Assembly (NCBI GenBank): GCA_010015805.1
Contig: ML978123.1
Coordinates: forward strand, 1,922,001 to 1,986,000
From: Rhizodiscina lignyota
Taxonomy: Eukaryota
Length of the DNA: 64,000 bases
Reading direction: 5' to 3'
Shown here: positions 3,098-28,740 of the stretch, one piece after another
Layout of the letters: each line of letters starts with the position of its first letter
How positions within the stretch are numbered: position 1 is the first letter of the stretch
Notes under the pieces: generated by a model
Database searches by the model: none
Seen by the model: only the letters and a program-made list of their open reading frames with translations
What the model was told of the DNA's origin: nothing
Translations under genes and position numbers: made by a program

Positions 3098-4887
3098 CTA
3101 CTCTACTTCTTGCTCTTTGTTCCAAGCCCGTAATTTCATCTCTGTGCGGAAGACATCTTTGATCAGCCTCTCTACGGAGATCCCAATTAACTTTGCGACT
3201 GCGTCTGCAAAGACTTTGCTATGCTCTGTGAGGTCCTCCACTCGCCTCCATTGCTTGTAATACGAGCCCGGACGGTTCACTGTCGCCCTCTCATCGAGAA
3301 TCTCCTCATCTAGTACCGCCTCTTGGACCTTCAGAGAAGTCATCGCCGCCTGCAGCTTTCCAGTAACTTCGTCACGCCCCTGTGCCTGACTAGTCCCAGC
3401 TGCAGAAGAGCGGCTTCTCGTAGTACTAGAACTGAATGCTGCTCCTGTAATTTTCCGATCGACGGGAAACATGGCGAGCATTTCCTTCCGAAATTCGGCG
3501 TCCTTTTCAAATCCGCTAATTTCATCGCTCGCCCATGTATGCCCATACCAGTCCAAGTACTGGTCCATTTCATCTCTTGACATGCTCATGATGTCCGATT
3601 CCTTGAGTGCCATCGCGTCCGCGAATCCAAAATGCTTCCTTGCGTGTTCTTTCTCTTTTTTGCCTTTTGGCTGCTGTGACATGATCGCCGCCCATTTGCT
3701 CCAGTCTACAGCTAGCGCAGCTGGCTCGTTAGTGGACCTGGGTGTCCGGGTGCTGCTATCGAATGGATAATAGAGCTTCGTTGCAATCACAATAAGTGAA
3801 GCAAGCTGATCCAGAGGGAGTTCAAGTCTCTTTGCTCGGTGTGACTGTTCCAGATGTGGAAAGGTAAACTTGTAGTCCAGCAGCCGAGAAAGCCTCGAAA
3901 CACCAACATAGACATCTAGGGGCAACGCCAATTCCTTGACGCATCTAATATTGACCATCGGGAAATTGAGAGGCGGCCATACTATTCCAGTTTTCTGTGA
4001 CATGTGCAGCGCGAGGTCGGTGATAGCGTTCTGAAGTTTATCTGGCTGGAGGATGACCTGCGGCTCCAGCGCGACTTTGTACTGAGGTGACAGGCGTACT
4101 CTCATGTCAGCTGGGATTGACTTCCAAGATGCGTGATACAACAACAACCCGTTTGCAGCCCAGGAGTAGATGTCCCCCGGTAGCACAGGCAGTCGGAGAA
4201 GCAAAGAAGCGAGGTAGCAGAAAGCCAGTGTGTCAATGAGATGTGGGAACTTCTTCGCTTTCGAGGACCTAGTCATCGGTCCCTTTTGAGGTTCTTCGGT
4301 CTCTGTTGTACTCGGATCTTCAGACTGAGAGCTGAAGAGCTGCGATTGACTCTCGCTGTCGGACGCGAGAGGCGTCTCATCTGTGCTGCCTTTGAGATGC
4401 GGAAGGCGGAGTGTCCATAGATCCTTTATGACTATCTGCGTCTCGATTAGATGGTGTATACTAGAAGTGTCCGCAGGAAGTTACCTCGATCTCGGCAGGG
4501 AAATCCTTGGAGTTTATGAGCCAGTTGCATTGTTTCCGCAGAATCAACTGGTAGCAAAGGAGATATAACTCAAAACCTGCTCGGCCCTTGATTTCTGCAA
4601 ATTCGTCAGGGACATTCACGAATCATAAAGATTGTCCTGCTGGAGCTCTTACGCCGCCCAAGCTTCTCCGTGGACGCCTCACTGGCGCTCTCAGTCCGAG
4701 ACTTGGCTCCTCGCTCTGAGGCACCATACTGGGCGTCCTCATCTTCCTCCCCATGCACTCGAATATGTGCTTGGAAGTGCCCGTTGTCACACTCGTAGAA
4801 CCCATTATCAGCTATACGGTAGTGGGTTCTGCCGCAATTCTCAAAGTCGCAGGGATCCCCTCGGATGGGATAATCCTCGCTAACCAT
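3098..4887 (-). CDS. RRN7: RNA polymerase I initiation factor Rrn7 (TAF1B) homologue, intron-containing
   Basis: N-terminal zinc ribbon (PCDFENCGRTHY...FYECDNGH) and downstream FPHLIDTLAFCYLASLLLRLPVLPGDIYSW and IVIATKLYYPFD blocks typical of fungal Rrn7. Confidence 0.8.
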
Positions 4888-5617
4888 TGCGATTGAGAGT
4901 TTAGAAGAAAGGTTGGGGGTTTTTCCGCTGCTTGTAAAATTCGCTTTCAAGTGGGCGACGTCTTCAACGGCCACTTTCTACCAACGTACGTGGAAAACTC
5001 CTGCGTTGATGTTGTTGTGGTCTCATTAATGCAAGATTGTCGCAGGCGCTTTCGTTTAACAATAAGAAAACGTTGATAGATCTCCATTGGTGGCATTTGC
5101 TCGTTATTGGAACGTGGATAGTGCTAATGGCGCCTCCGTGTAGGTGTCAACTAGTCACGAAGAGGCTCTGGGCTGTGGTTCGACATTGAAAATGCACCTA
5201 AAACATAACAAAAAAGCGTAAGTAATCGATCCTGCTGGCTTGATCAGAACCAACAGGTTTGTATTGGTGCCTTCTTGGGCGTTGACACAAGCTTGAAGAA
5301 TTTTAGAGAGTAGTATGCTGGTAAGAGACCGAGTTTATTCTAGTCTTGGCATTCCCTATAAAACATCCGCAAAAGGCTTTTGCATGGGTTACGCCCACGA
5401 CAAGATGATATATAGCTTTGGACCCAGAGGTTATCCCCAACCCAAAAGTTGTCGCTGGGGAAAACTTCCCAAGACAGCACCTATCACCCATGCCACCAAT
5501 CAAGTTCATTGCCATGCCGTGAGGAACGTTAGTCTCATATCCGTCATACCCTGTGTCAACACCCCCCATGTTTTGTCTTCGTAAAATGAGTGCTGCCTTG
5601 TGTGGAAGCTTGATGGT

Positions 5618-6362
5618 CTAACCACGAGGAGCCTCCTTGGCGTCGATGGCGGCCTCTTCGCCCATGGCAGTAAGGACGATGACGTCTAATTGCAGTGGTA
5701 AGCCATTTTGAATTGGGGGTGAAGTTATCATAAGTCCTTACTAGTGTCTTTGCCGTCCTCAGTGAAGAGCTTCTTGATCTTGTCACCAACTTCGCCATCG
5801 GGGACCTTAACATCATCCTTAGTGGAGCCATCGTCAGACATCAGGGAAAGGAATCCATCATCGGTGACATCGAGCTGTAACCCATCAGCGAAGCATGCAC
5901 TTCAATTTTCCTTGCTTATTGCCACTCACAAGCTGGTATTCCTGGCGACGGACGTTGGGAACGTCCATATTGTGGGTGGACGGGCAGAGATCTTCAAGCT
6001 TCTTCTGAGTGAAGATGTCGATGGCGACAAGATGGACCTTGGCGTGGCCGTGCTTGCCAGTCTTGGAGGTGGACATTTCGACGATCTTGCAAGGGCGGTT
6101 CTTGATCACGACGAAGCCGTTCTTCCTAAGAGCAGAGCACTGCATAGGATAAGTGGCCGAGGCACCGGCATCGGCGCTCTCGAAGGTGTGCTCATGCTGT
6201 TAAAGCATTATCAGTAAGATGTGTGCACGTTTGGGGGAGCACTTGGACGCGAAGTGCTGAAAGTGCGCGCGACACATGCAGCATGCAGTAATGGCTGAAA
6301 TGCGTGTGGGAGGGGCATCAAAAGGACTCGAGGAGACTCACCTGCGCATCGTTGTCGGCCAT
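5618..6362 (-). CDS. eIF5A: Translation factor eIF5A
   Basis: Hypusine motif [14 protein letters not shown]; start MADNDAQ at 6362; ends KEAPRG* at 5618; 3 introns. Confidence 0.97.
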
Positions 6363-6696
6363 TTTGAAGGGAGGAGTGTTGTTGACTTGCGACTAGATGC
6401 GAGGAAGAGGCGACAAGGTCGGCTGAACGAGCAGGCAAGAAATTTGAGGACGAGGGTGGACTGAGGAAGCGGTTGGTCGGGTGTGGGCAGGGCGTTCTCG
6501 AAAAAGCGAAAAGGATGGGCCACACCCCGCTGCAGTTGTCCTAATCCTCATTGGGATTTGTGGTATAGGCAGATAGTTTATCCGTGCCGGCCATATGAAG
6601 CTCAGCTGCAAGAGAGATGAGACGAGAGAGTCGGACTCGACTTCTGAACCGATTGTTCCTCTTACAAATCGAAGATGCGATAAAGCCGCTTACACC

Positions 6697-8832
6697 ATGT
6701 GGCTCGACCGCTTTTCCCAGCAATCTAGCCCATCGGGCACGCCTCCTCCCCAAGGCCGAGCATCTCCTGCACCTCGAAGACAACCTTATGGCCCTGGCCC
6801 TCTTCCCCCAAGGCCTTCCTTTGGCCCTAGATCATCGTCTCTTTCTCTCGCCTCTACTCCGTCTACCACTAGTCTCGTCGGAACGGCACGCGTCCCCAAT
6901 GGATCAGCTCTAAAGAATGAGCTCTACAGTGCTCCACCTCCTGGTCTCGACGATCCCCTTTCTGTACTTCATAATATATTGGGCGCGCCGCCCCGGAAAC
7001 CACGGAGAGTCTCCGAGCCAGAGGGCCATGTTAGCAAGCCTGCAGAGGTCATCGAAGATATTGACTTTGGTGGTGTAAGTCTGGAGGCATTTGCTGGGGA
7101 CGATCGCAATGGGAACTCCCCTGCTATAAGCTCTCGAGCGCAACCTGTACAACCTGTTGAGGAATGTATGTAAGTCGAGGTAGTTCGATGGTTTCTGCGA
7201 ACTGCATTTGACGTGCCATGCAGATGACAAGGAGAAGGATAAATTCGATGATCTCCATCGTTCCATCCTGGTGAGCTGGCTAACCCTATATCGCATTCAT
7301 ATTTGCTGACCGTATGACTGAAGGCTTGCGATGAAGTGCTCAAATCAGTTGAGACATATCTCACAGGTTTTCAAGCCGACCTTGGTGCAGTGTCCGCAGA
7401 GATCGAAACTCTACAGTCTCGTTCCATGGCGCTTAATACCAAGCTAGAGAATCGCAGAGTGGTTGAGAAGCTGCTTGGGCCCTCTGTCGAGGAGTTCAGT
7501 CTTTCGCCTGCATTAGTCCGCAAGATCTCAGAAGGTCCCATTGATGAGGGCTGGATCCGAGCTCTTGCGGATCTGGAGAAGCGTTCAAAAGTCATTAATG
7601 GGAAGAGCGATGATAGAGATATCAAAGCCGTCTCAGACCTCAAACCACTCCTCAAAGACTTGAATGACAGAGCCGTTGAGAGAATACGAGACTACATTGT
7701 CGCGCAGATCAAGGCAATACGGTCCCCCAGCATCAATGCTCAGATTATCCAGCAACAAAACCTCCTTAGATACAAGGACCTTTACGCCTTTATGGCTCGA
7801 CATCAACCTCAACTAGCTGAACAGATTGTTCAAGCTTACGTCAACACGATGCGCTGGTATTATTTGAGCAATTTCACCCGATATCACCAAGCACTTGAGA
7901 AACTCAAAATTCACATCATTGAGAAGACAGAGGTCCTAGGGTCAGTGGAAGACGCCTCTTCAAGCAGAGGTCCTCTTCGCAGCGGTGCTGCGAGACCTGG
8001 CGCACCTCCACATGATACCTTCTCTCTTGGTCGACGAAGTGACATGCTCAAAAGTCCATCTTTAGCGGCGCTACCATCGAGTGTTGCGGAGGAAGACAAG
8101 TCTGCGCATTATCTCGAGACTCCTTTCCGCGCTTTTAACCTTGCTCTGTTGGATAACGCATCGTTCGAGTATACCTTCCTGACTGGGTTCTTCACTCCTA
8201 CGCAATCGTACCACGCAATCTCCAGGACATTCAACTCTATTTTCGAACCCACATTTACATTGGGCCAAAGCCTAACCAGACAGCTTGTTGAACAGACAAA
8301 TGATGGACTAGGAATACTCCTCTGTGTACGCCTTAATCAACAGTTCGCCTTTGAACTTCAACGCCGGAAAGTGCCTGCCGTAGAAAGCTACATCAACGCA
8401 ACTAATATGCTGCTATGGCCACGTTTCCAAATAGTCATCGATGCGCACTGCGACTCCCTACGCAAAGCTACCGCATCTTTACCAAGCCGACCTGGCGTGG
8501 CGTCTGCGATCTTGAACTCTTCTGCCGCACCATCACAAAGCACCGCTCCGCATCCGTTGACGCAACGTTTTGCTACCTTTGTGGCTGGCATTCTGACACT
8601 GAGCTCGGAAACTGGTGACGATGAGCCTGTCGCAAATAGCTTGACCCGCCTCCGAAACGACTTCGAGGCCTTCTTGACCAAGATGAGCAAGGCTGTTGCA
8701 GCGGATAAGAGGAAGCAACAGAGATTTCTGGACAATAACTGGAGCTTAATTGGAACGATTTTGGAAGGAATTCCAGGACGGTTGGCAGGAGAAGTTCGCG
8801 ATCATTTCGCGGGATTGCAAGTAGAAGAGTAG
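6697..8832 (+). CDS. VPS52: GARP complex subunit Vps52/Sac2
   Basis: MWLDRFS start; LKSVETYLTGFQADLGAVSAEIETLQSRS...YVNTMRWYY...MLLWPRFQ motifs; 2 introns near 7166-7323. Confidence 0.92.
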
Positions 8833-9088: not shown

Positions 9089-9982
9089 TTACGCCTTGCA
9101 ATGGTGGTGCTTGCGGCACTTCTTATGATGAGAAGATCGAGTTTCAAGGTCGACCTTTTGGGTTTCAGCGGTGTTGCCGACCTTTTCTCCATTGACCGTG
9201 GTGTCCGCAGGGGAACGCGTCTCGACGTCGACTTTGCCTATCTCTGCAGTACTACCGGCCTTGGTGCTTGGGACTGTCGCATCCACTGGAGAGCGAGTCT
9301 CCACATCAACCTTTCCAGTCTGCGCGGTGTCGCCGATCTTCTCACTTGGCACATTCGCGTCCACAGGAGAGCGCGTGCTGAACGTGGAGTCTTCTGTCTG
9401 AGCAGTATCTCCGACCTTCTCTCCGTTGACGGCCACGTCAGCAGGCGAGCGTGTCTGTACATCATTCTGTACAGCCTCGGCAGCGTTCTCAACCTTCTCC
9501 TTCACAGAACTTGCGTCCAATGCCTTGCGCGTCTGCAGAGCACTCTCTACATCTCCAGCAGTGTCCTCAACCTTCTCCTCCACAGAGCTCGCGTCCAATG
9601 CCTTGCGCGTCTGTAGAGCACCCTCTACATCTTCAGCAGTGTTCTCAACCTTCTCCTCCACAGAGCTTGCGTCTAATGCCTCGCGTTCCTGAATGGTGGT
9701 GCCTCCAACGTTCGCCGTGTTGCCGACTTTACTCGCGGGGACATTGACATCCACGGGTGAGCGTTCATCAATGGCGATGTCCTTAGTGTTTGCGGTATTG
9801 CCGAGATTTAAGCTGGGGAGGGTGATGCGGAACGGAGACCGAGTGTGCATCTTGAACTTGCCGCCTTTGGGGCCATCCTCGGACAGATCAAAGGGCGATG
9901 CAGTGCGCTTGACATAATCAGGAGAGGGAGTCGGTAAGGCGAGGGCGGCCGCTGAGAATGCTAGGACAGACAAGATGTGCAT
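9089..9982 (-). CDS. Secreted tandem-repeat protein, probable Kex2-processed peptide precursor (KEP-like), 297 aa
   Basis: Signal peptide MHILSVLAFSAAALA-LP, KR at aa 25-26, nine 26-aa repeats each ending in ER/TR and starting SP/EA/KA; intronless ORF with good start context (accaccATG). Confidence 0.85.
   Translation of the reverse strand: MHILSVLAFSAAALALPTPSPDYVKRTASPFDLSEDGPKGGKFKMHTRSPFRITLPSLNLGNTANTKDIAIDERSPVDVNVPASKVGNTANVGGTTIQEREALDASSVEEKVENTAEDVEGALQTRKALDASSVEEKVEDTAGDVESALQTRKALDASSVKEKVENAAEAVQNDVQTRSPADVAVNGEKVGDTAQTEDSTFSTRSPVDANVPSEKIGDTAQTGKVDVETRSPVDATVPSTKAGSTAEIGKVDVETRSPADTTVNGEKVGNTAETQKVDLETRSSHHKKCRKHHHCKA
9137..9838 (-). repeat. 9 x 78-nt coding tandem repeat
   Basis: Units such as SPVDVNVPASKVGNTANVGGTTIQER, KALDASSVEEKVEDTAGDVESALQTR, SPADTTVNGEKVGNTAETQKVDLETR, each 26 aa. 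Confidence 0.92.
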
Positions 9983-11415
9983 GGTGGTTGTTCCTGTCGA
10001 GATGTGAGTCTGGTGCAGCTGGTCAGAATTGGACGTAGAGCATACGGTTGGTTTTTGTGAGGACTGATTAAATATTAACGGTTATAAAGATAAAGGAATG
10101 TAGTCTATAATAACAAGCGAGTGTATCGAGTGAGAATTGTAGAGGAAATAGAAGACGTGGCAGAGGAAACAGATGAAGGATGCTCCGCAGGAATGGGATG
10201 AAGAACGTAGAACAACCACGCGGAAACCTACGAACTTAAATTCAATCGAATGTTTCATGAATCGCAAATATAAATTGGGTCCATAAGAAATGACAGATTC
10301 GTGCTTGGAAAGCTTTATGTTTGTGATGTGCTGTGATGCTGCAGGAAAACACAACGACACTGGATCGCCGTGGACCATGGTGGAACTTGACCTGGGATGG
10401 AGGGACAGGAAGGGTATGTCATTTCGTAGATCTCCTACATTTGGCAGTGCTCCATCATGGAGAAGCGACTCAAGACCCACTGAGGCGCTTGCGTGATAAA
10501 CGAATATCGATAGAATCCAAAAGTTTGGGATTGGGCAGATGTCGGTAAGTCAGGGGCCCGATGTCCTTCGTGACATGCTCGAGAACTCTACCGTTGAATT
10601 CACCCTCTTAAAGATAGTTTCAACTTCGAGAACAAATGCAAATAAACATTGCTGAAGGGGAGAGAGCTTTCATCCCCATTGCATGGTAATCGGCATCTCG
10701 TTGCGCAAGTCTTCAGAAGGTTAGGGAAGGCCGGATGGGGTGGGAAGCGATTTTGTGTCCCTGACGATCACCCACATGCCAGGGGCTGGGCTTGATTGGC
10801 GTGAACGTGGTTTGCCATCCCCCTGTCCGCTTCCATCCGATCTGAATTGCGTTGTCGATCATGTTGTTGATTCATCGGCTACCGGACCAGAATATGGCTT
10901 TACGTCGCCTGCCTTCAGCCATCCACAATGATGTTTTGAAGCGGAGATACATGGGCAATGCCGCAATGCACAAGGGCGACGCCCGCAATATCTGAGACAT
11001 GACCATCCATCCTCAGAGCGCGGTCTTGATATCAATTTCTCAACGTGCTTGGCTTCAGACTATCAATCGGAGCTCTTGGCGCGCCAGACATCAGCCACCT
11101 CCATACACGTGCGAATACTTACCTTGAATCCTGGTCTCCCGCCTCGGAGACGCCTCCTGCCGCATTCCCCAGGCGGCGCCCAGTATCCACGAGGCATTCT
11201 CGTTGCAAAGCTTGTCCAAACCATGTCTCGACGGCGAGATTTGATGAGGTTGTACCTTCCGCTTATCTACTCATCGACGGATAGTGGAAAGTAAGCAATG
11301 AAGATTGACCGTGCTGGCTCCATGGTGAAATGCAAACACGTGTATATTGAACAGGCTGAGGGTATCTGTGCGGTTAAGACGCTAGAAACAATGCAGTTGA
11401 CGAGGACACCACCGC

Positions 11416-12617
11416 CTACTTGATCTTCCCAATACGCTTCTTCGCAATGTCCACTTTGCTTTGCACTCTGTCCACGTCCTGATCCACCAAGTCTGTGCTC
11501 TGGTCAGTACGATCACGAAGAATCTCACGATAAGGGAGAGATACATACCAAGCATCGTACTCTGCTCCTCTAGCTCTTGATTAATCTCGACACCCATCTC
11601 TCGCATACGCCTCACCACCTTCGCCAAATCATCCACGTCCATATCCTGCTCTTTCATAACCTGCTGTTGAAGTTGCAATACGCCTTCATTGTCCAGTTCC
11701 CTCGTACGCTCCGTCTCTTTCGCTGGGCCTCCTAGAACCCTCCCGCCTCTCCCAACTCCAGCGGCACCACCGCCAAAGAGCCCCGTCTTCGCTCCCTCCG
11801 TCGCCTGCTTGCTCTCTAGACTCTTCTCCATCGCACCCGCCAATGTACTCTTTACCGCAAGAGTATTTAGCACGCCCTCCAGCCCTTCTCTCTCCTTCCT
11901 CGCCGCACTCAGCAGGTCTCTCCGTCTCCTGATCTCTCCCTCGCCCAGCGTATTCCCACCCCAGCCATCCTCTCCTCCGCTGCTTTTACTCTGTCCCGAC
12001 AATCTCCTGAGCCCATCTTCCAGCTGGGCGATCAGCGTAGCCGCTCTTACAAGACTCTTCTTTGCACCCGCACCCGCCTCATGCTGTGTCGCGACCTCGC
12101 TGGCTCGCTCTCGACGGTTCAACGCGGTGCGGGCTTCGTGCAGTTGTGTCTTTAGTTGCGCATGCGCGTCCAACCATCCAGCCGCACTGACGATTTGGCC
12201 ACCAATACCGCCTACACCCCTGACGGATCCGAACGTCGCATTACTCCCTCCATCAGTGGCAGTGCTACTCGTCGCTCCAACGCCGAGGAAGTCGCGCCAC
12301 GCCCTACTGTTCCGCCACCGTGAATCATCTGCGTTTTCAATCTCTCTGACGTACCGCTCTAGCCCTTGTCGCCGCTCCTCTGTTAATGAGGGATTGTTGA
12401 GTGTGCTCTTGATCCATGATTTTGGAGGGAGCGGAGCCGGAGGAGCTTCGCCGGTCGTGGATATGAGGGCATGGTGGAGGGCTTCGAAGTCGGAATAGCG
12501 CTTTTGACTCGTCGATGTTCGGAGAGCACCTTTAATGGAGATGGTGTAAGAGGTATACGCCTTCCCGGTTGATGGCGATGTTGTAGTGGCGGAAGGTATG
12601 GTTATATCGAGAGGCAT
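11416..12617 (-). CDS. VAM7: PX-domain vacuolar Qc-SNARE Vam7
   Basis: N-terminal PX domain (KRYSDFEALH, PPAPLPPK, ERRQGLERY) and C-terminal SNARE motif (ETERTRELDNEGVLQLQ...EQD); terminal intron near 11490-11545 gives ...IAKKRIGKIK*. Confidence 0.9.
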
Positions 12618-26620: not shown

Positions 26621-28740
26621 TTACATGATCTGATCCTGAGTGATACCGCCTGCCGCTTCCGTATCCATTGCGTCGCCATTGCCAACGTTGGTGTACTTGA
26701 CGAAAGTCAAGCCGAGAGGACGACCACCGTACTGATAGCCTGAGAACTTGGCTAGAAGGCCATTAGTGCGTGTTCAAATCGACATTGCGCCTCACAACTT
26801 ACCAATAGCAGTCTCAGCGTCCTCCGCAGAGCTGAACTCAACCACACCGGTGCCTCGAGAGCGGCCATTTGGCTCGTACTGGATCTCAGCACGCTCAACT
26901 TTGCCGATAGTGGTGAAGAGCTCGACCAAGTCCTCGTTGCTAGTGGACCAAGGGAGCTGTTTGAAGTGAGTATCTGAACAGCTGCATCGGCATGTATCCA
27001 CTCACGTTGCGCACGTAGATGACCGGACCACGCTCACCGCCAGATGTGGCGTAATCAGTGAACGGGTTTGGCTGAGCCGGAGGAGCGTCGAAGCCGGCGC
27101 CTGGAGGGCCGCCGTGACCAGCACCAGCACCAGCACCAGCACCAGCACCACCGCTGAAGCCGCCACCGCCACCGCCATAGCCGCCGCCTCCATAGCCGCC
27201 GCGACCTCCTCCATAGCCACCTCCGCCAAAGCCACCTCGGCCACCGAATCCGCCACGGCCACCGCCGAATCCTCCACGCATGCCACCACCACCACCACCA
27301 CCATATCCGCCGCCGAATCCTCCACGGCCTCCAAAGCCACCACCACCGGGGCCACCAGAGCCAGCGAAGCGATCCTCTCTAACTTCCAGAGCGCGACCTT
27401 GCCACTCGTATCCGTTGAACTGCTGAATCGCGTTGCGGGCGTCCTCGGCGGTGTCGAATGCGACGATTCCAGAACCTTTAGGGCGACCATCGGGGGCAAC
27501 GTGAACGTCGGCGCGGATGACGGAACCTGTGATGGCTGTATGGGGTGTTAATAGGATTCGACGAGCCTTGGCGATCCTCCTATGCCATCCTTGATCAGTT
27601 TAATCAGCGAGGGGTATTGCTTACCAGCTTGACGGAACAAGTCTTTCAGATCCTGCCAGCCCACAGTGTATGGGAGCTACGAGTTATGGTCAATCCAACA
27701 CTCATTCACACCAGGGTATTCGAGGGGAGGGGAAACAAACGTTGGAGACGTAGATCTGGCGTCCTCCACCACCCGGAGCACCACCATAGCCTCCGCCTCC
27801 AAATCCACCACGGCCACCACCACCACCGCCGCCGCCGCCCATACCACCTTCGTAGCCACCGCGGGGAGCACCACCGGAAGGCTGAAAGCGTGGCTCGGCT
27901 TCACGGTCCTGCACGTAACAAGGCATCTTAATTAGCTTCTAGCCTATATTTGAACCCAAAGGTCTGTCTGGGAACACCATACCTCGCGAACGTAGACAAG
28001 TCGACCCATCAAGTTCTGGTTGCTGAGCGTGTTGACGGCGTTTTGGGCTTGTTCCCGAGTTGCATATTCCACAATGCTGTGATGTGAATAAGTTGCTGTA
28101 GCCGGCATAATGGTGAAGAAGTATAACTTACCCACATCCCTACATGACCCAGACCAGACCGGTCCCATCCGTCAATCCAAAGTCCATATAAATAACCAAG
28201 AAAAACCAAAAACCAAAACCGCATCATGTGTTGGCGCCCACCTTCGACATTCCATTTGGAAGTAATAATACGTCGGCAAACAGGACATCGCCCGCTGTGT
28301 CACACGTTAGTGTCGTGCGCTTCATTGGAATTCACACGTGAGCGTCGCAACCACCACTAACCTTGCCTCATGAAATCTTTGAGATGATGCCACTTGACAT
28401 CGTACGAGAGATTGCCGACATAGACGCGGCGGTCTTGTTGAGAAGAGTCGCGTAGAGACTGCATCATTTGCTCCTTCGCAACAGCGCGATCCTCAACGCT
28501 CCGAGCAGCCGGCGCAGGGCGACCACTACCACCGTAGTTGTTCGAGTAGCCTCCACCAGTGTTGTTCAAAGGCGAGCGAGACCGACGATCACTGCGGCGA
28601 TAGCCTTCACGAGAGCGGCTTCTTGAGCGCGGAGAGTAGGAGCGACGAGCGCGTCGGGGAGATCTTGAACGAGACCTGCGTCGAGGGGACCTGGAACGTT
28701 CGCCGCGCTGTTGTGGTTGGTAAGAGTCAACGTCAGCCAT
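26621..28740 (-). CDS. GBP2: Three-RRM SR/RGG RNA-binding protein (Gbp2/Hrb1/SnxA-like), multi-exon
   Basis: RS-rich N-terminus; RRMs [54 protein letters not shown] linkers; ends GITQDQIM*. Confidence 0.88.

What the first reader, a model, noticed from the sequence alone, without database searches (positions are those of the whole stretch)
9089..9982. Secreted precursor of nine 26-residue peptides with monobasic Kex2-like and Ste13-like processing sites
Seen: signal peptide, KR, a 22-aa spacer, then nine units of exactly 26 aa. Every unit ends in ER or TR and begins with X-Pro or X-Ala (SP, EA, KA). Known: Kex2 cleaves after KR/RR and some xR sites, and Ste13 removes XA/XP dipeptides, as in alpha-factor and fungal KEPs; Ustilago Rep1 is a comparable repeat precursor. 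Inference: one gene releases a mixture of related peptides of unknown function. No DUF3328/UstYa gene is in the window, so these are probably linear peptides, not dikaritin RiPPs. KEP screens that require KR/RR between repeats would miss this gene. It sits between two housekeeping genes, VPS52 and VAM7.
Basis: partly seen in the sequence, partly recalled or inferred. Interest (0 to 1): 0.8.

Follow-up and report, generated by a model that had tools for sequence, protein, structure and literature searches.

The report
Fungal repeat-peptide precursor, non-standard cut sites
A rare fungal gene encodes a secreted protein of nine 26-residue repeats that looks built to be cut into small peptides at a known but non-standard protease signal, so the usual computer screens for such precursors would miss it; neither the cutting nor the job of the peptides has been shown.

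Summary
A 297-aa ORF (minus strand, 9089-9982) has a signal-like N-terminus, one KR and nine gap-free 26-aa units ending in ER or TR. The junctions are more than single arginines. All ten non-KR sites have a hydrophobic P4 and Thr or Glu at P2, which fits the published extended Kex2 motif. One homologous gene was found, in two frameshifted pieces on one unnamed contig. It has KR at most equivalent junctions and keeps the X-Pro/X-Ala starts, which is the best evidence for processing. Silent changes far outnumber replacements at the junctions. The genome encodes Kex2 and a Ste13/Dap2-type enzyme, and no DUF3328 gene lies within 600 kb. The protein fails the dibasic criteria of both published KEP surveys. 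It therefore works like a KEP (closest: Ustilago Rsp1/Rep1) but is a variant that those screens miss. Expression, cleavage and function are untested. Surface or matrix peptides are my best guess. The scan has noted other KEP-like genes before, in this and other genomes, but none like this sequence.

The parts
9089..9982 (-). Single-ORF gene, 297-aa repeat precursor (P0001), one copy in the genome
   Evidence: one public contig matches it without differences or gaps (possibly the source of the assembly)
9938..9982 (-). Predicted signal peptide, residues 1-15
   Evidence: hydropathy and -3/-1 rule only; the homologue has a matching N-terminus
9905..9937 (-). Pro-segment, residues 16-26: three X-Pro dipeptides and the only KR site
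   Evidence: kept in the homologue
9839..9904 (-). 22-aa segment, probably a decayed tenth unit; starts with TA-SP and ends in MHTR
   Evidence: aligns to the homologue's first full repeat with a 7-aa gap
9683..9838 (-). Units 1-2 (type A, SP start, Gly in the core), ending in IDER and IQER
9449..9682 (-). Units 3-5 (type B, EA/KA start, acidic, helix-prone); a younger triplication with two internal TR-then-Lys junctions
   Evidence: a type-B-like unit also ends the homologue
9137..9448 (-). Units 6-9 (type A) with the conserved core K-[VIA]-G-[NDS]-T-A
   Evidence: no fold in AlphaFold2
9089..9136 (-). His/Lys/Cys-rich 15-aa tail and stop codon
   Evidence: not present in the homologue's pieces
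9994..10045 (-). Possible 52-nt intron in the 5' untranslated leader (GTATGC...CAG), ending 11 nt before the ATG
   Evidence: read by eye; unverified, no RNA data
6595..8832 (+). Neighbour: VPS52 (context, convergent with the gene)
   Evidence: Pfam PF20655 and PF04129 over cut-off
11382..12617 (-). Neighbour: PX-domain gene, VAM7-like (context)
   Evidence: Pfam PF00787; the name VAM7 is recalled, not scored

Best explanation
A pre-pro-polypeptide that works like a Kex2-processed repeat protein (KEP) but uses the extended hydrophobic-x-[T/E]-Arg motif at every repeat junction. Inferred steps: (1) the signal peptide takes it into the secretory pathway; (2) Golgi Kex2 cuts after Arg at the KR and at up to ten xR sites, with the hydrophobic P4 making up for the missing basic P2; (3) a Kex1-type carboxypeptidase removes the Arg and a Ste13-type aminopeptidase removes the X-Pro/X-Ala dipeptide; (4) the products are up to nine linear, unmodified 23-aa peptides (2.27-2.52 kDa) of two kinds, six Gly-containing type A and three acidic helix-prone type B. 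The two junctions followed by Lys may be cut poorly, leaving units 3-5 as one longer helical piece. Shown: anatomy, selection, motif match, a KR homologue, and presence of Kex2 and a DPP-IV-family enzyme. Not shown: expression, cleavage, function. For function I favour hydrophilic peptides acting in bulk at the cell wall or extracellular matrix, as Rsp1/Rep1-type products are thought to (about 0.35), over receptor ligands (about 0.2). The stated confidence is for the processing.
For: P4 is M, I, L, V or F at 10 of 10 non-KR sites, P2 is T or E at 10 of 10, and P3 varies over six residues. Outram 2021 gives P4 Leu/aliphatic, P3 free, and P2 Lys then Arg, Thr, Pro, Glu, Ile. In the homologue 4 of 6 junctions read are KR, one is TR and one is TC, and all 6 are followed by X-Pro or X-Ala. 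Hydrophobic P4 occurs at 11 of 11 non-KR Arg sites but only 2 of 5 KR sites (Fisher p 0.018; sites not independent). Arg is nearly absent from unit cores (1 Arg to 15 Lys; neighbouring genes 386 to 377). Among the five type-A units 2 and 6-9, junction columns have pN 0.11 and the core 0.13, against 0.46 elsewhere, at pS about 0.73. P4' is acidic at 8 of 11 sites, in line with Bader 2008. The junction motif persists across helical and non-helical units, and type A has no predicted fold. Kex2 and a membrane-anchored DPP-IV are encoded in the genome.
Against: There is no peptide or cleavage evidence. Only 3 of 10 sites are strict LxxR and 8 of 10 fit the list L, I, V, A, P; the M and F at P4 fall outside it. 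P1' is Lys at 2 of 11 sites, and Bader 2008 found basic residues under-represented at cleaved sites and one third of predicted substrates uncut. The ESM Atlas model of the intact protein is beta-solenoid-like (TM 0.62 to a phage protein; pLDDT 0.52). The homologue is a single gene, is frameshifted, and has lost Arg at one junction. Repeats share ancestry, so the counts overstate independence. Kex1 was not searched for.
Confidence: 0.78

Rival explanations
1. An uncut (or only pro-cleaved at KR) secreted beta-solenoid or fibrous repeat protein, in which each 26-aa unit is one coil and the conserved Arg, hydrophobic residue 23 and Pro are structural.
For: Exact 26-aa period without indels despite pS about 0.7. 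The ESM Atlas model matches beta-helical folds: TM 0.62 for the whole protein and 0.79-0.84 for residues 179-282. Alternating Val in unit positions 3-7 and a Gly-Asn/Asp core.
Against: The Atlas model is low-confidence (pLDDT 0.52, pTM 0.42). AlphaFold2 gives no solenoid (pTM 0.24 and 0.11, on shallow alignments) and makes units 3-5 a helix. Homologue units vary from 24 to 29 aa, and its KR junctions lose the hydrophobic residue that a solenoid core would need. Arg is excluded from cores.
Confidence: 0.12
2. An alpha-pheromone-like or hormone precursor: the peptides are ligands for a receptor.
For: X-Pro/X-Ala follows 10 of 11 sites and is kept by substitution in the homologue (TP-SP, SA-FP). 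This is the Ste13 signature of alpha-pheromone precursors. The invariant core could be a receptor-binding motif.
Against: The units have diverged (3 to 22 of 26 identical), contain no Tyr or Trp and only 2 Phe in 234 aa, and carry only one dipeptide each rather than runs. No MF-alpha or pheromone Pfam match. That pheromones are short, aromatic and near-identical is recalled knowledge.
Confidence: 0.18
3. A dikaritin-type RiPP precursor, cyclised by DUF3328 oxidases encoded elsewhere in this DUF3328-rich genome.
For: 76 UstYa matches in the genome, so enzymes acting in trans are available.
Against: The nearest matches on the same contig are about 624 kb and 1.4 Mb away, whereas Umemura reports a mean distance of 3.09 genes (abstract). 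The units hold no Tyr, Trp or Cys to crosslink.
Confidence: 0.04
4. A decaying or unexpressed lineage-specific repeat ORF.
For: An orphan: one relative in 1.84 billion representatives, and that one frameshifted. It sits where gene order is not conserved.
Against: Intact frame over 894 nt, pN/pS 0.46 within both unit types with much stronger constraint at junction and core, a good start-codon context, and a homologue with the same N-terminus at 41% identity over 100 aa.
Confidence: 0.06

Closest known systems
Kex2-processed repeat proteins (KEPs) of Le Marquer 2019 (PMC6339444) and Umemura 2020 (PMC7329392)
   Same: Signal peptide, compact block of three or more related units, Arg-terminated junctions, Ste13-type dipeptides, unit size within the surveyed range.
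   Different: Only one KR and no RR. In-silico cutting by either survey's rule gives no set of repeat-sized fragments. The homologue, with KR at four junctions read, is much closer to the standard form.
Extended Kex2 motif (LxxR) of K2PP effector pro-domains (Outram 2020 bioRxiv 10.1101/2020.05.27.120113; PMC8528282)
   Same: Hydrophobic P4, free P3, tolerated Thr/Glu at P2, Arg at P1; Kex2 cut such pro-domains in vitro.
   Different: There the motif removes one pro-domain from a folded protein. Here it recurs ten times and delimits peptides.
Ustilago maydis Rsp1 and Rep1
   Same: Rsp1 is 260 aa with eleven hydrophilic repeats of 18 or 21 aa separated by putative Kex2 motifs. Rep1 is a Kex2-cut repeat precursor of linear wall peptides.
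   Different: Rep1 peptides are 34-55 aa, amphipathic and proven amyloid. The units here are acidic, with no significant hydrophobic moment in 9 of 9 (lowest p 0.075). No sequence comparison with Rep1 or Rsp1 was run; no named protein came up in the homology searches.
Peniophora KEP type S-1 (Umemura Table S3)
   Same: Aliphatic-x-x-Arg sites such as VEAR and LVAR stand directly before the core in some repeats, where KR stands in others (read by eye).
   Different: Those proteins keep KR after every repeat and were therefore catalogued. They form a 20-gene basidiomycete family with longer, Phe-rich units.

Membership tests
KEP (Le Marquer 2019 definition) | Signal peptide, no membrane segment | tested here: inconclusive
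   Hydropathy rule fits and no later hydrophobic stretch; SignalP/TMHMM not available
KEP (Le Marquer 2019 definition) | At least four fragments after cutting at KR/RR (or KK) | tested here: not met
   2 fragments by either rule
KEP (Umemura 2020 definition) | At least 3 tandem repeats of 8-100 aa between KR, KK, RK or RR | tested here: not met
   Fragments of 11, 101, 26, 135, 3 and 6 aa
KEP (functional sense) | Tandem related units forming most of the protein | tested here: met
   234 of 297 aa, period 26
KEP (functional sense) | Junctions fit Kex2 specificity | tested here: met
   P1 Arg, P2 K/T/E, hydrophobic P4 at 11 of 11 sites; KR at equivalent sites in the homologue
KEP (functional sense) | Actual Kex2-dependent release of peptides | not testable with these tools
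   Needs peptidomics or an in-vitro digest
Alpha-pheromone-type precursor | Ste13 X-Ala/X-Pro dipeptides after the cut | tested here: met
   10 of 11 sites, but single dipeptides rather than runs
Alpha-pheromone-type precursor | Similarity to MF-alpha or known pheromone cores | tested here: not met
   No such Pfam match; no Tyr or Trp in the units; no direct BLAST against pheromone precursors was run
Dikaritin RiPP precursor | DUF3328/UstYa gene nearby | tested here: not met
   Nearest match on the contig is over 600 kb away
Dikaritin RiPP precursor | Aromatic residue (Tyr) in the core for crosslinking | tested here: not met
   0 Tyr and 0 Trp in residues 49-282
Rep1-type repellent | Amphipathic peptides | tested here: not met
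   No significant moment at 100 or 170 degrees in 9 of 9 units
Rep1-type repellent | Amyloid-like fibrils on the wall | not testable with these tools
   Predictions disagree and are low-confidence

The most novel reading that the evidence does not exclude
This is the first-noted example of a repeat-peptide precursor whose junctions have all drifted from Lys-Arg to hydrophobic-x-[T/E]-Arg by trading one Kex2 subsite for another. It marks a hidden, possibly large class of fungal peptide precursors that the dibasic screens cannot see. Its products are two co-secreted peptide types, of which type A stacks unit on unit into a cross-beta surface coat.
Probability: 0.2. Interest if true: 0.72.

Novelty: new variant of a known kind. 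Interest (0 to 1): 0.45.

Why it matters
The published catalogues of fungal peptide precursors (1193 and 7878 KEPs) were built on dibasic sites, although Kex2 is known to accept hydrophobic-x-x-Arg. This gene and its KR-bearing homologue form a natural pair that suggests a whole precursor can switch to the extended motif. If so, the catalogues have a blind spot that one re-screen of fungal secretomes could measure. The peptides themselves belong to an undescribed and very rare family, so their biology may be narrow.

Tried and rejected
Single-sequence search of 5.8 billion proteins: 0 of 8000 candidates scored. A third search with the homologue included found only the same two pieces. P0004, the third hit, was dropped as a low-complexity 7-residue repeat without a signal peptide or xR junctions. 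The metagenome scan for relatives matched 591 stretches and confirmed none. No paralogue in the genome: protein searches hit only this locus, and of 93 matches to a junction DNA pattern only the two in this gene stood one unit apart (read by eye). Pfam and PDB sequences gave nothing over cut-off. ESM Atlas feature hits were all under 0.8, or absent. No RNA holder was listed, which says nothing about expression. Motif searches in the two KEP surveys' supplements gave 0, but a control with known KEP cores in the Umemura files also gave 0 (those tables list accessions) and the Le Marquer files had no control, so these blanks are uninformative; one search also reported that part of the supplement store gave no answer. 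A possible extra junction at the homologue's break was not counted, because the shifted frame fits both K-R-S-P and E-R-S-P. No fold search was run, because both models are low-confidence, and no complex prediction, because single units are under 30 aa and the question concerns a filament. A recalled resemblance to bacterial chaplins found no Pfam support. The Peniophora S-1 repeats were not aligned to these units, so a faint resemblance seen by eye stays untested.

Full report
Observation. The finding lies on the minus strand: one ORF of 297 aa from 9982 to 9089. Cutting after each KR, ER or TR gives 26 aa (signal and pro-segment, ending in KR), 22 aa, nine units of exactly 26 aa, and a 15-aa His/Lys/Cys-rich tail. 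The period is far above chance: lag-26 identity is 0.55 against at most 0.18 in 2000 shuffles. A public contig covers 8800-10300 with no difference or gap, but it may be the source of the assembly. The N-terminus fits a signal peptide by a hydropathy rule and there is no later hydrophobic stretch. The neighbours are VPS52 and a PX-domain gene, and the window's genes are fungal.

It is a gene under selection. The units fall into two types on one register: type A (units 1, 2, 6-9) and type B (units 3-5, a younger triplication). pN/pS is 0.46 among units 2 and 6-9 (unit 1 was left out of this group) and 0.46 among units 3-5. In type A the four junction columns have pN 0.11 and the six-residue core 0.13, against 0.46 for the other 16 columns, at pS 0.72-0.76 throughout. 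Pairs of repeats are not independent, so these figures show direction, not significance.

The junctions. All 11 sites have Arg at P1. P2 is Lys once, Thr eight times and Glu twice. P3 takes six residues. P4 is always hydrophobic but takes six identities. X-Pro or X-Ala follows 10 of 11 sites, and P4' is acidic at 8 of 11. In 11 other ORFs of the window, 1% of 383 Arg sites combine these P4, P2 and P2' features. Outram 2021 (PMC8528282, first of three parts read) gives Kex2's preference as Leu or another aliphatic at P4, a free P3, and Lys then Arg, Thr, Pro, Glu, Ile at P2. Passages of PMC6258133 and PMC6624476 report a strong LXXR preference and Kex2-dependent cutting at Met-Gly-Pro-Arg. Passages of the SnTox3 preprint report in-vitro removal of LxxR pro-domains. 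Vogt 2022 (PMC9769878, abstract, first third of Results, passages) saw KEP products ending at single arginines. Bevan 1998 and Li 2017 were not read; they are cited through these papers. Against the reading: only 3 of 10 sites are strict LxxR and 8 of 10 fit Outram's aliphatic list. Two sites have Lys at P1', and passages of Bader 2008 (PMC2515848) report basic residues under-represented at cleaved sites and a third of predicted substrates uncut.

The homologue. A profile of eight two-unit windows found P0002 among 8000 scored candidates. Read against 1.84 billion representatives it gave three hits: P0002, P0003 and a low-complexity protein that I dropped. P0002 and P0003 are each recorded on an unnamed Logan contig of 8076 bases. 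The last 18 residues of P0002 are the shifted-frame reading of the start of P0003 (at most 4 in 300 shuffles), so they are two pieces of one frameshifted gene; error or broken allele cannot be told apart. It shares the signal and pro-segment (41% over 100 aa), the core, and a final type-B-like unit. Its six junctions read KR four times, TR once and TC once, and each is followed by X-Pro or X-Ala, including substituted forms. A hydrophobic P4 stands at 11 of 11 non-KR Arg sites of the two genes but at 2 of 5 KR sites (p 0.018 if independent, which they are not). That is the trade-off expected of a protease signal and not of a structural position. Arg is also nearly absent from the cores: 1 Arg to 15 Lys in the window's units, and in the homologue's in-frame parts Arg occurs only at junctions. 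Homologue units run from 24 to 29 aa, so the exact 26 is not a family rule.

Machinery and context. The genome has one Kex2-type gene and one membrane-anchored DPP-IV of Ste13/Dap2 type. Kex1 was not searched for. It has 76 UstYa matches, but the nearest on this contig are at 2,555,441 and 513,342, against the gene at 1,931,092, and the units contain no Tyr, Trp or Cys. A scan of metagenome contigs gave 52 loci, of which 41 are clear VPS52 genes, many of them redundant and 50-68% identical. eIF5A lies beside VPS52 in 20 of 41 (counted by eye). None of the 52 shows a VAM7-like gene or a relative of the precursor; 18 of the 41 have at least 3.6 kb downstream of VPS52. The gene therefore sits at the variable edge of a conserved block. 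Close relatives were not available.

Structure. AlphaFold2 on three rows gives pLDDT 45, with a helix over residues 105-177 and nothing else. On units 7-9 with six rows it gives no fold (pTM 0.11). The ESM Atlas, which holds this exact sequence, models it as beta-solenoid-like at pLDDT 0.52. No unit has a significant hydrophobic moment (0 of 9). The predictions disagree and are weak: they fit an open, cleavable precursor but do not exclude beta-stacking of the released type-A peptides.

Mechanism. Most likely (0.78) the protein is secreted and cut by Kex2 at hydrophobic-x-[K/T/E]-Arg, then trimmed to 23-aa linear peptides of 2.27-2.52 kDa, with units 3-5 perhaps partly uncut. Every enzymatic step is inferred. 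For function, the diverged, acidic, aromatic-free units suit a bulk role at the wall or matrix better than a pheromone, but this is a guess (about 0.35).

Comparison with what is known. By the operational rules of Le Marquer 2019 (abstract, Methods pipeline, first half of Results and the STE13 section read) and Umemura 2020 (abstract, Methods, Table S3 and supplement searches) the protein is not a KEP. It works like a KEP, and architecturally it is nearest Ustilago Rsp1 (passages of PMC4617103). It differs from Rep1 (passages of PMC3133707) in lacking amphipathicity. Umemura's Table S3 already shows aliphatic-x-x-Arg sites alternating with KR before the cores of a Peniophora family, so the motif in KEPs is not new in itself. 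A precursor using it at every repeat junction was not found in print: searches returned no paper, and the listings of searches showed no title on it. The library lacks most subscription journals, and supplements I could not see may bear on this.

Verdict. A real, rare and undescribed peptide-precursor gene, and a new variant of a common kind. Its value is as a test case for a blind spot in KEP catalogues, not as a new mechanism. Interest 0.45.

Noticed in passing
G000 genome-wide: 76 UstYa/DUF3328 matches, many in pairs or small groups: the genome looks rich in dikaritin-type clusters.
   Followed up: no
window 3098-8832; loci L007, L014, L019, L022, L034, L048: The RRN7, eIF5A, VPS52 order is kept in other fungi, while the gene downstream of VPS52 differs from lineage to lineage.
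   Followed up: partly
window 9994-10045 (-): Possible 52-nt intron in the 5' leader of the precursor gene, ending 11 nt before the ATG (my notebook entry says 12; 11 is the recount).
   Followed up: no
window 9089-9136 (-): The 15-aa tail has five His, two Cys and four Lys and would be released as its own peptide; it could bind metal. It is absent from the homologue's pieces.
   Followed up: no
L023 and L025, about 1.3-2 kb downstream of VPS52: An unrelated small secreted-looking protein whose pro-segment ends in an aliphatic/Met-x-Ala-Arg site followed by X-Pro dipeptides: another likely non-dibasic Kex2 site.
   Followed up: no
window 27002-27490 (-): Gly-rich low-complexity stretch with three short tandem arrays, probably part of an RNA-binding protein.
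   Followed up: no
PMC7329392 Table S3: Peniophora KEP type S-1 repeats carry internal aliphatic-x-Ala-Arg sites in the position where sister repeats have KR, so their mature peptides are probably shorter than catalogued.
   Followed up: no
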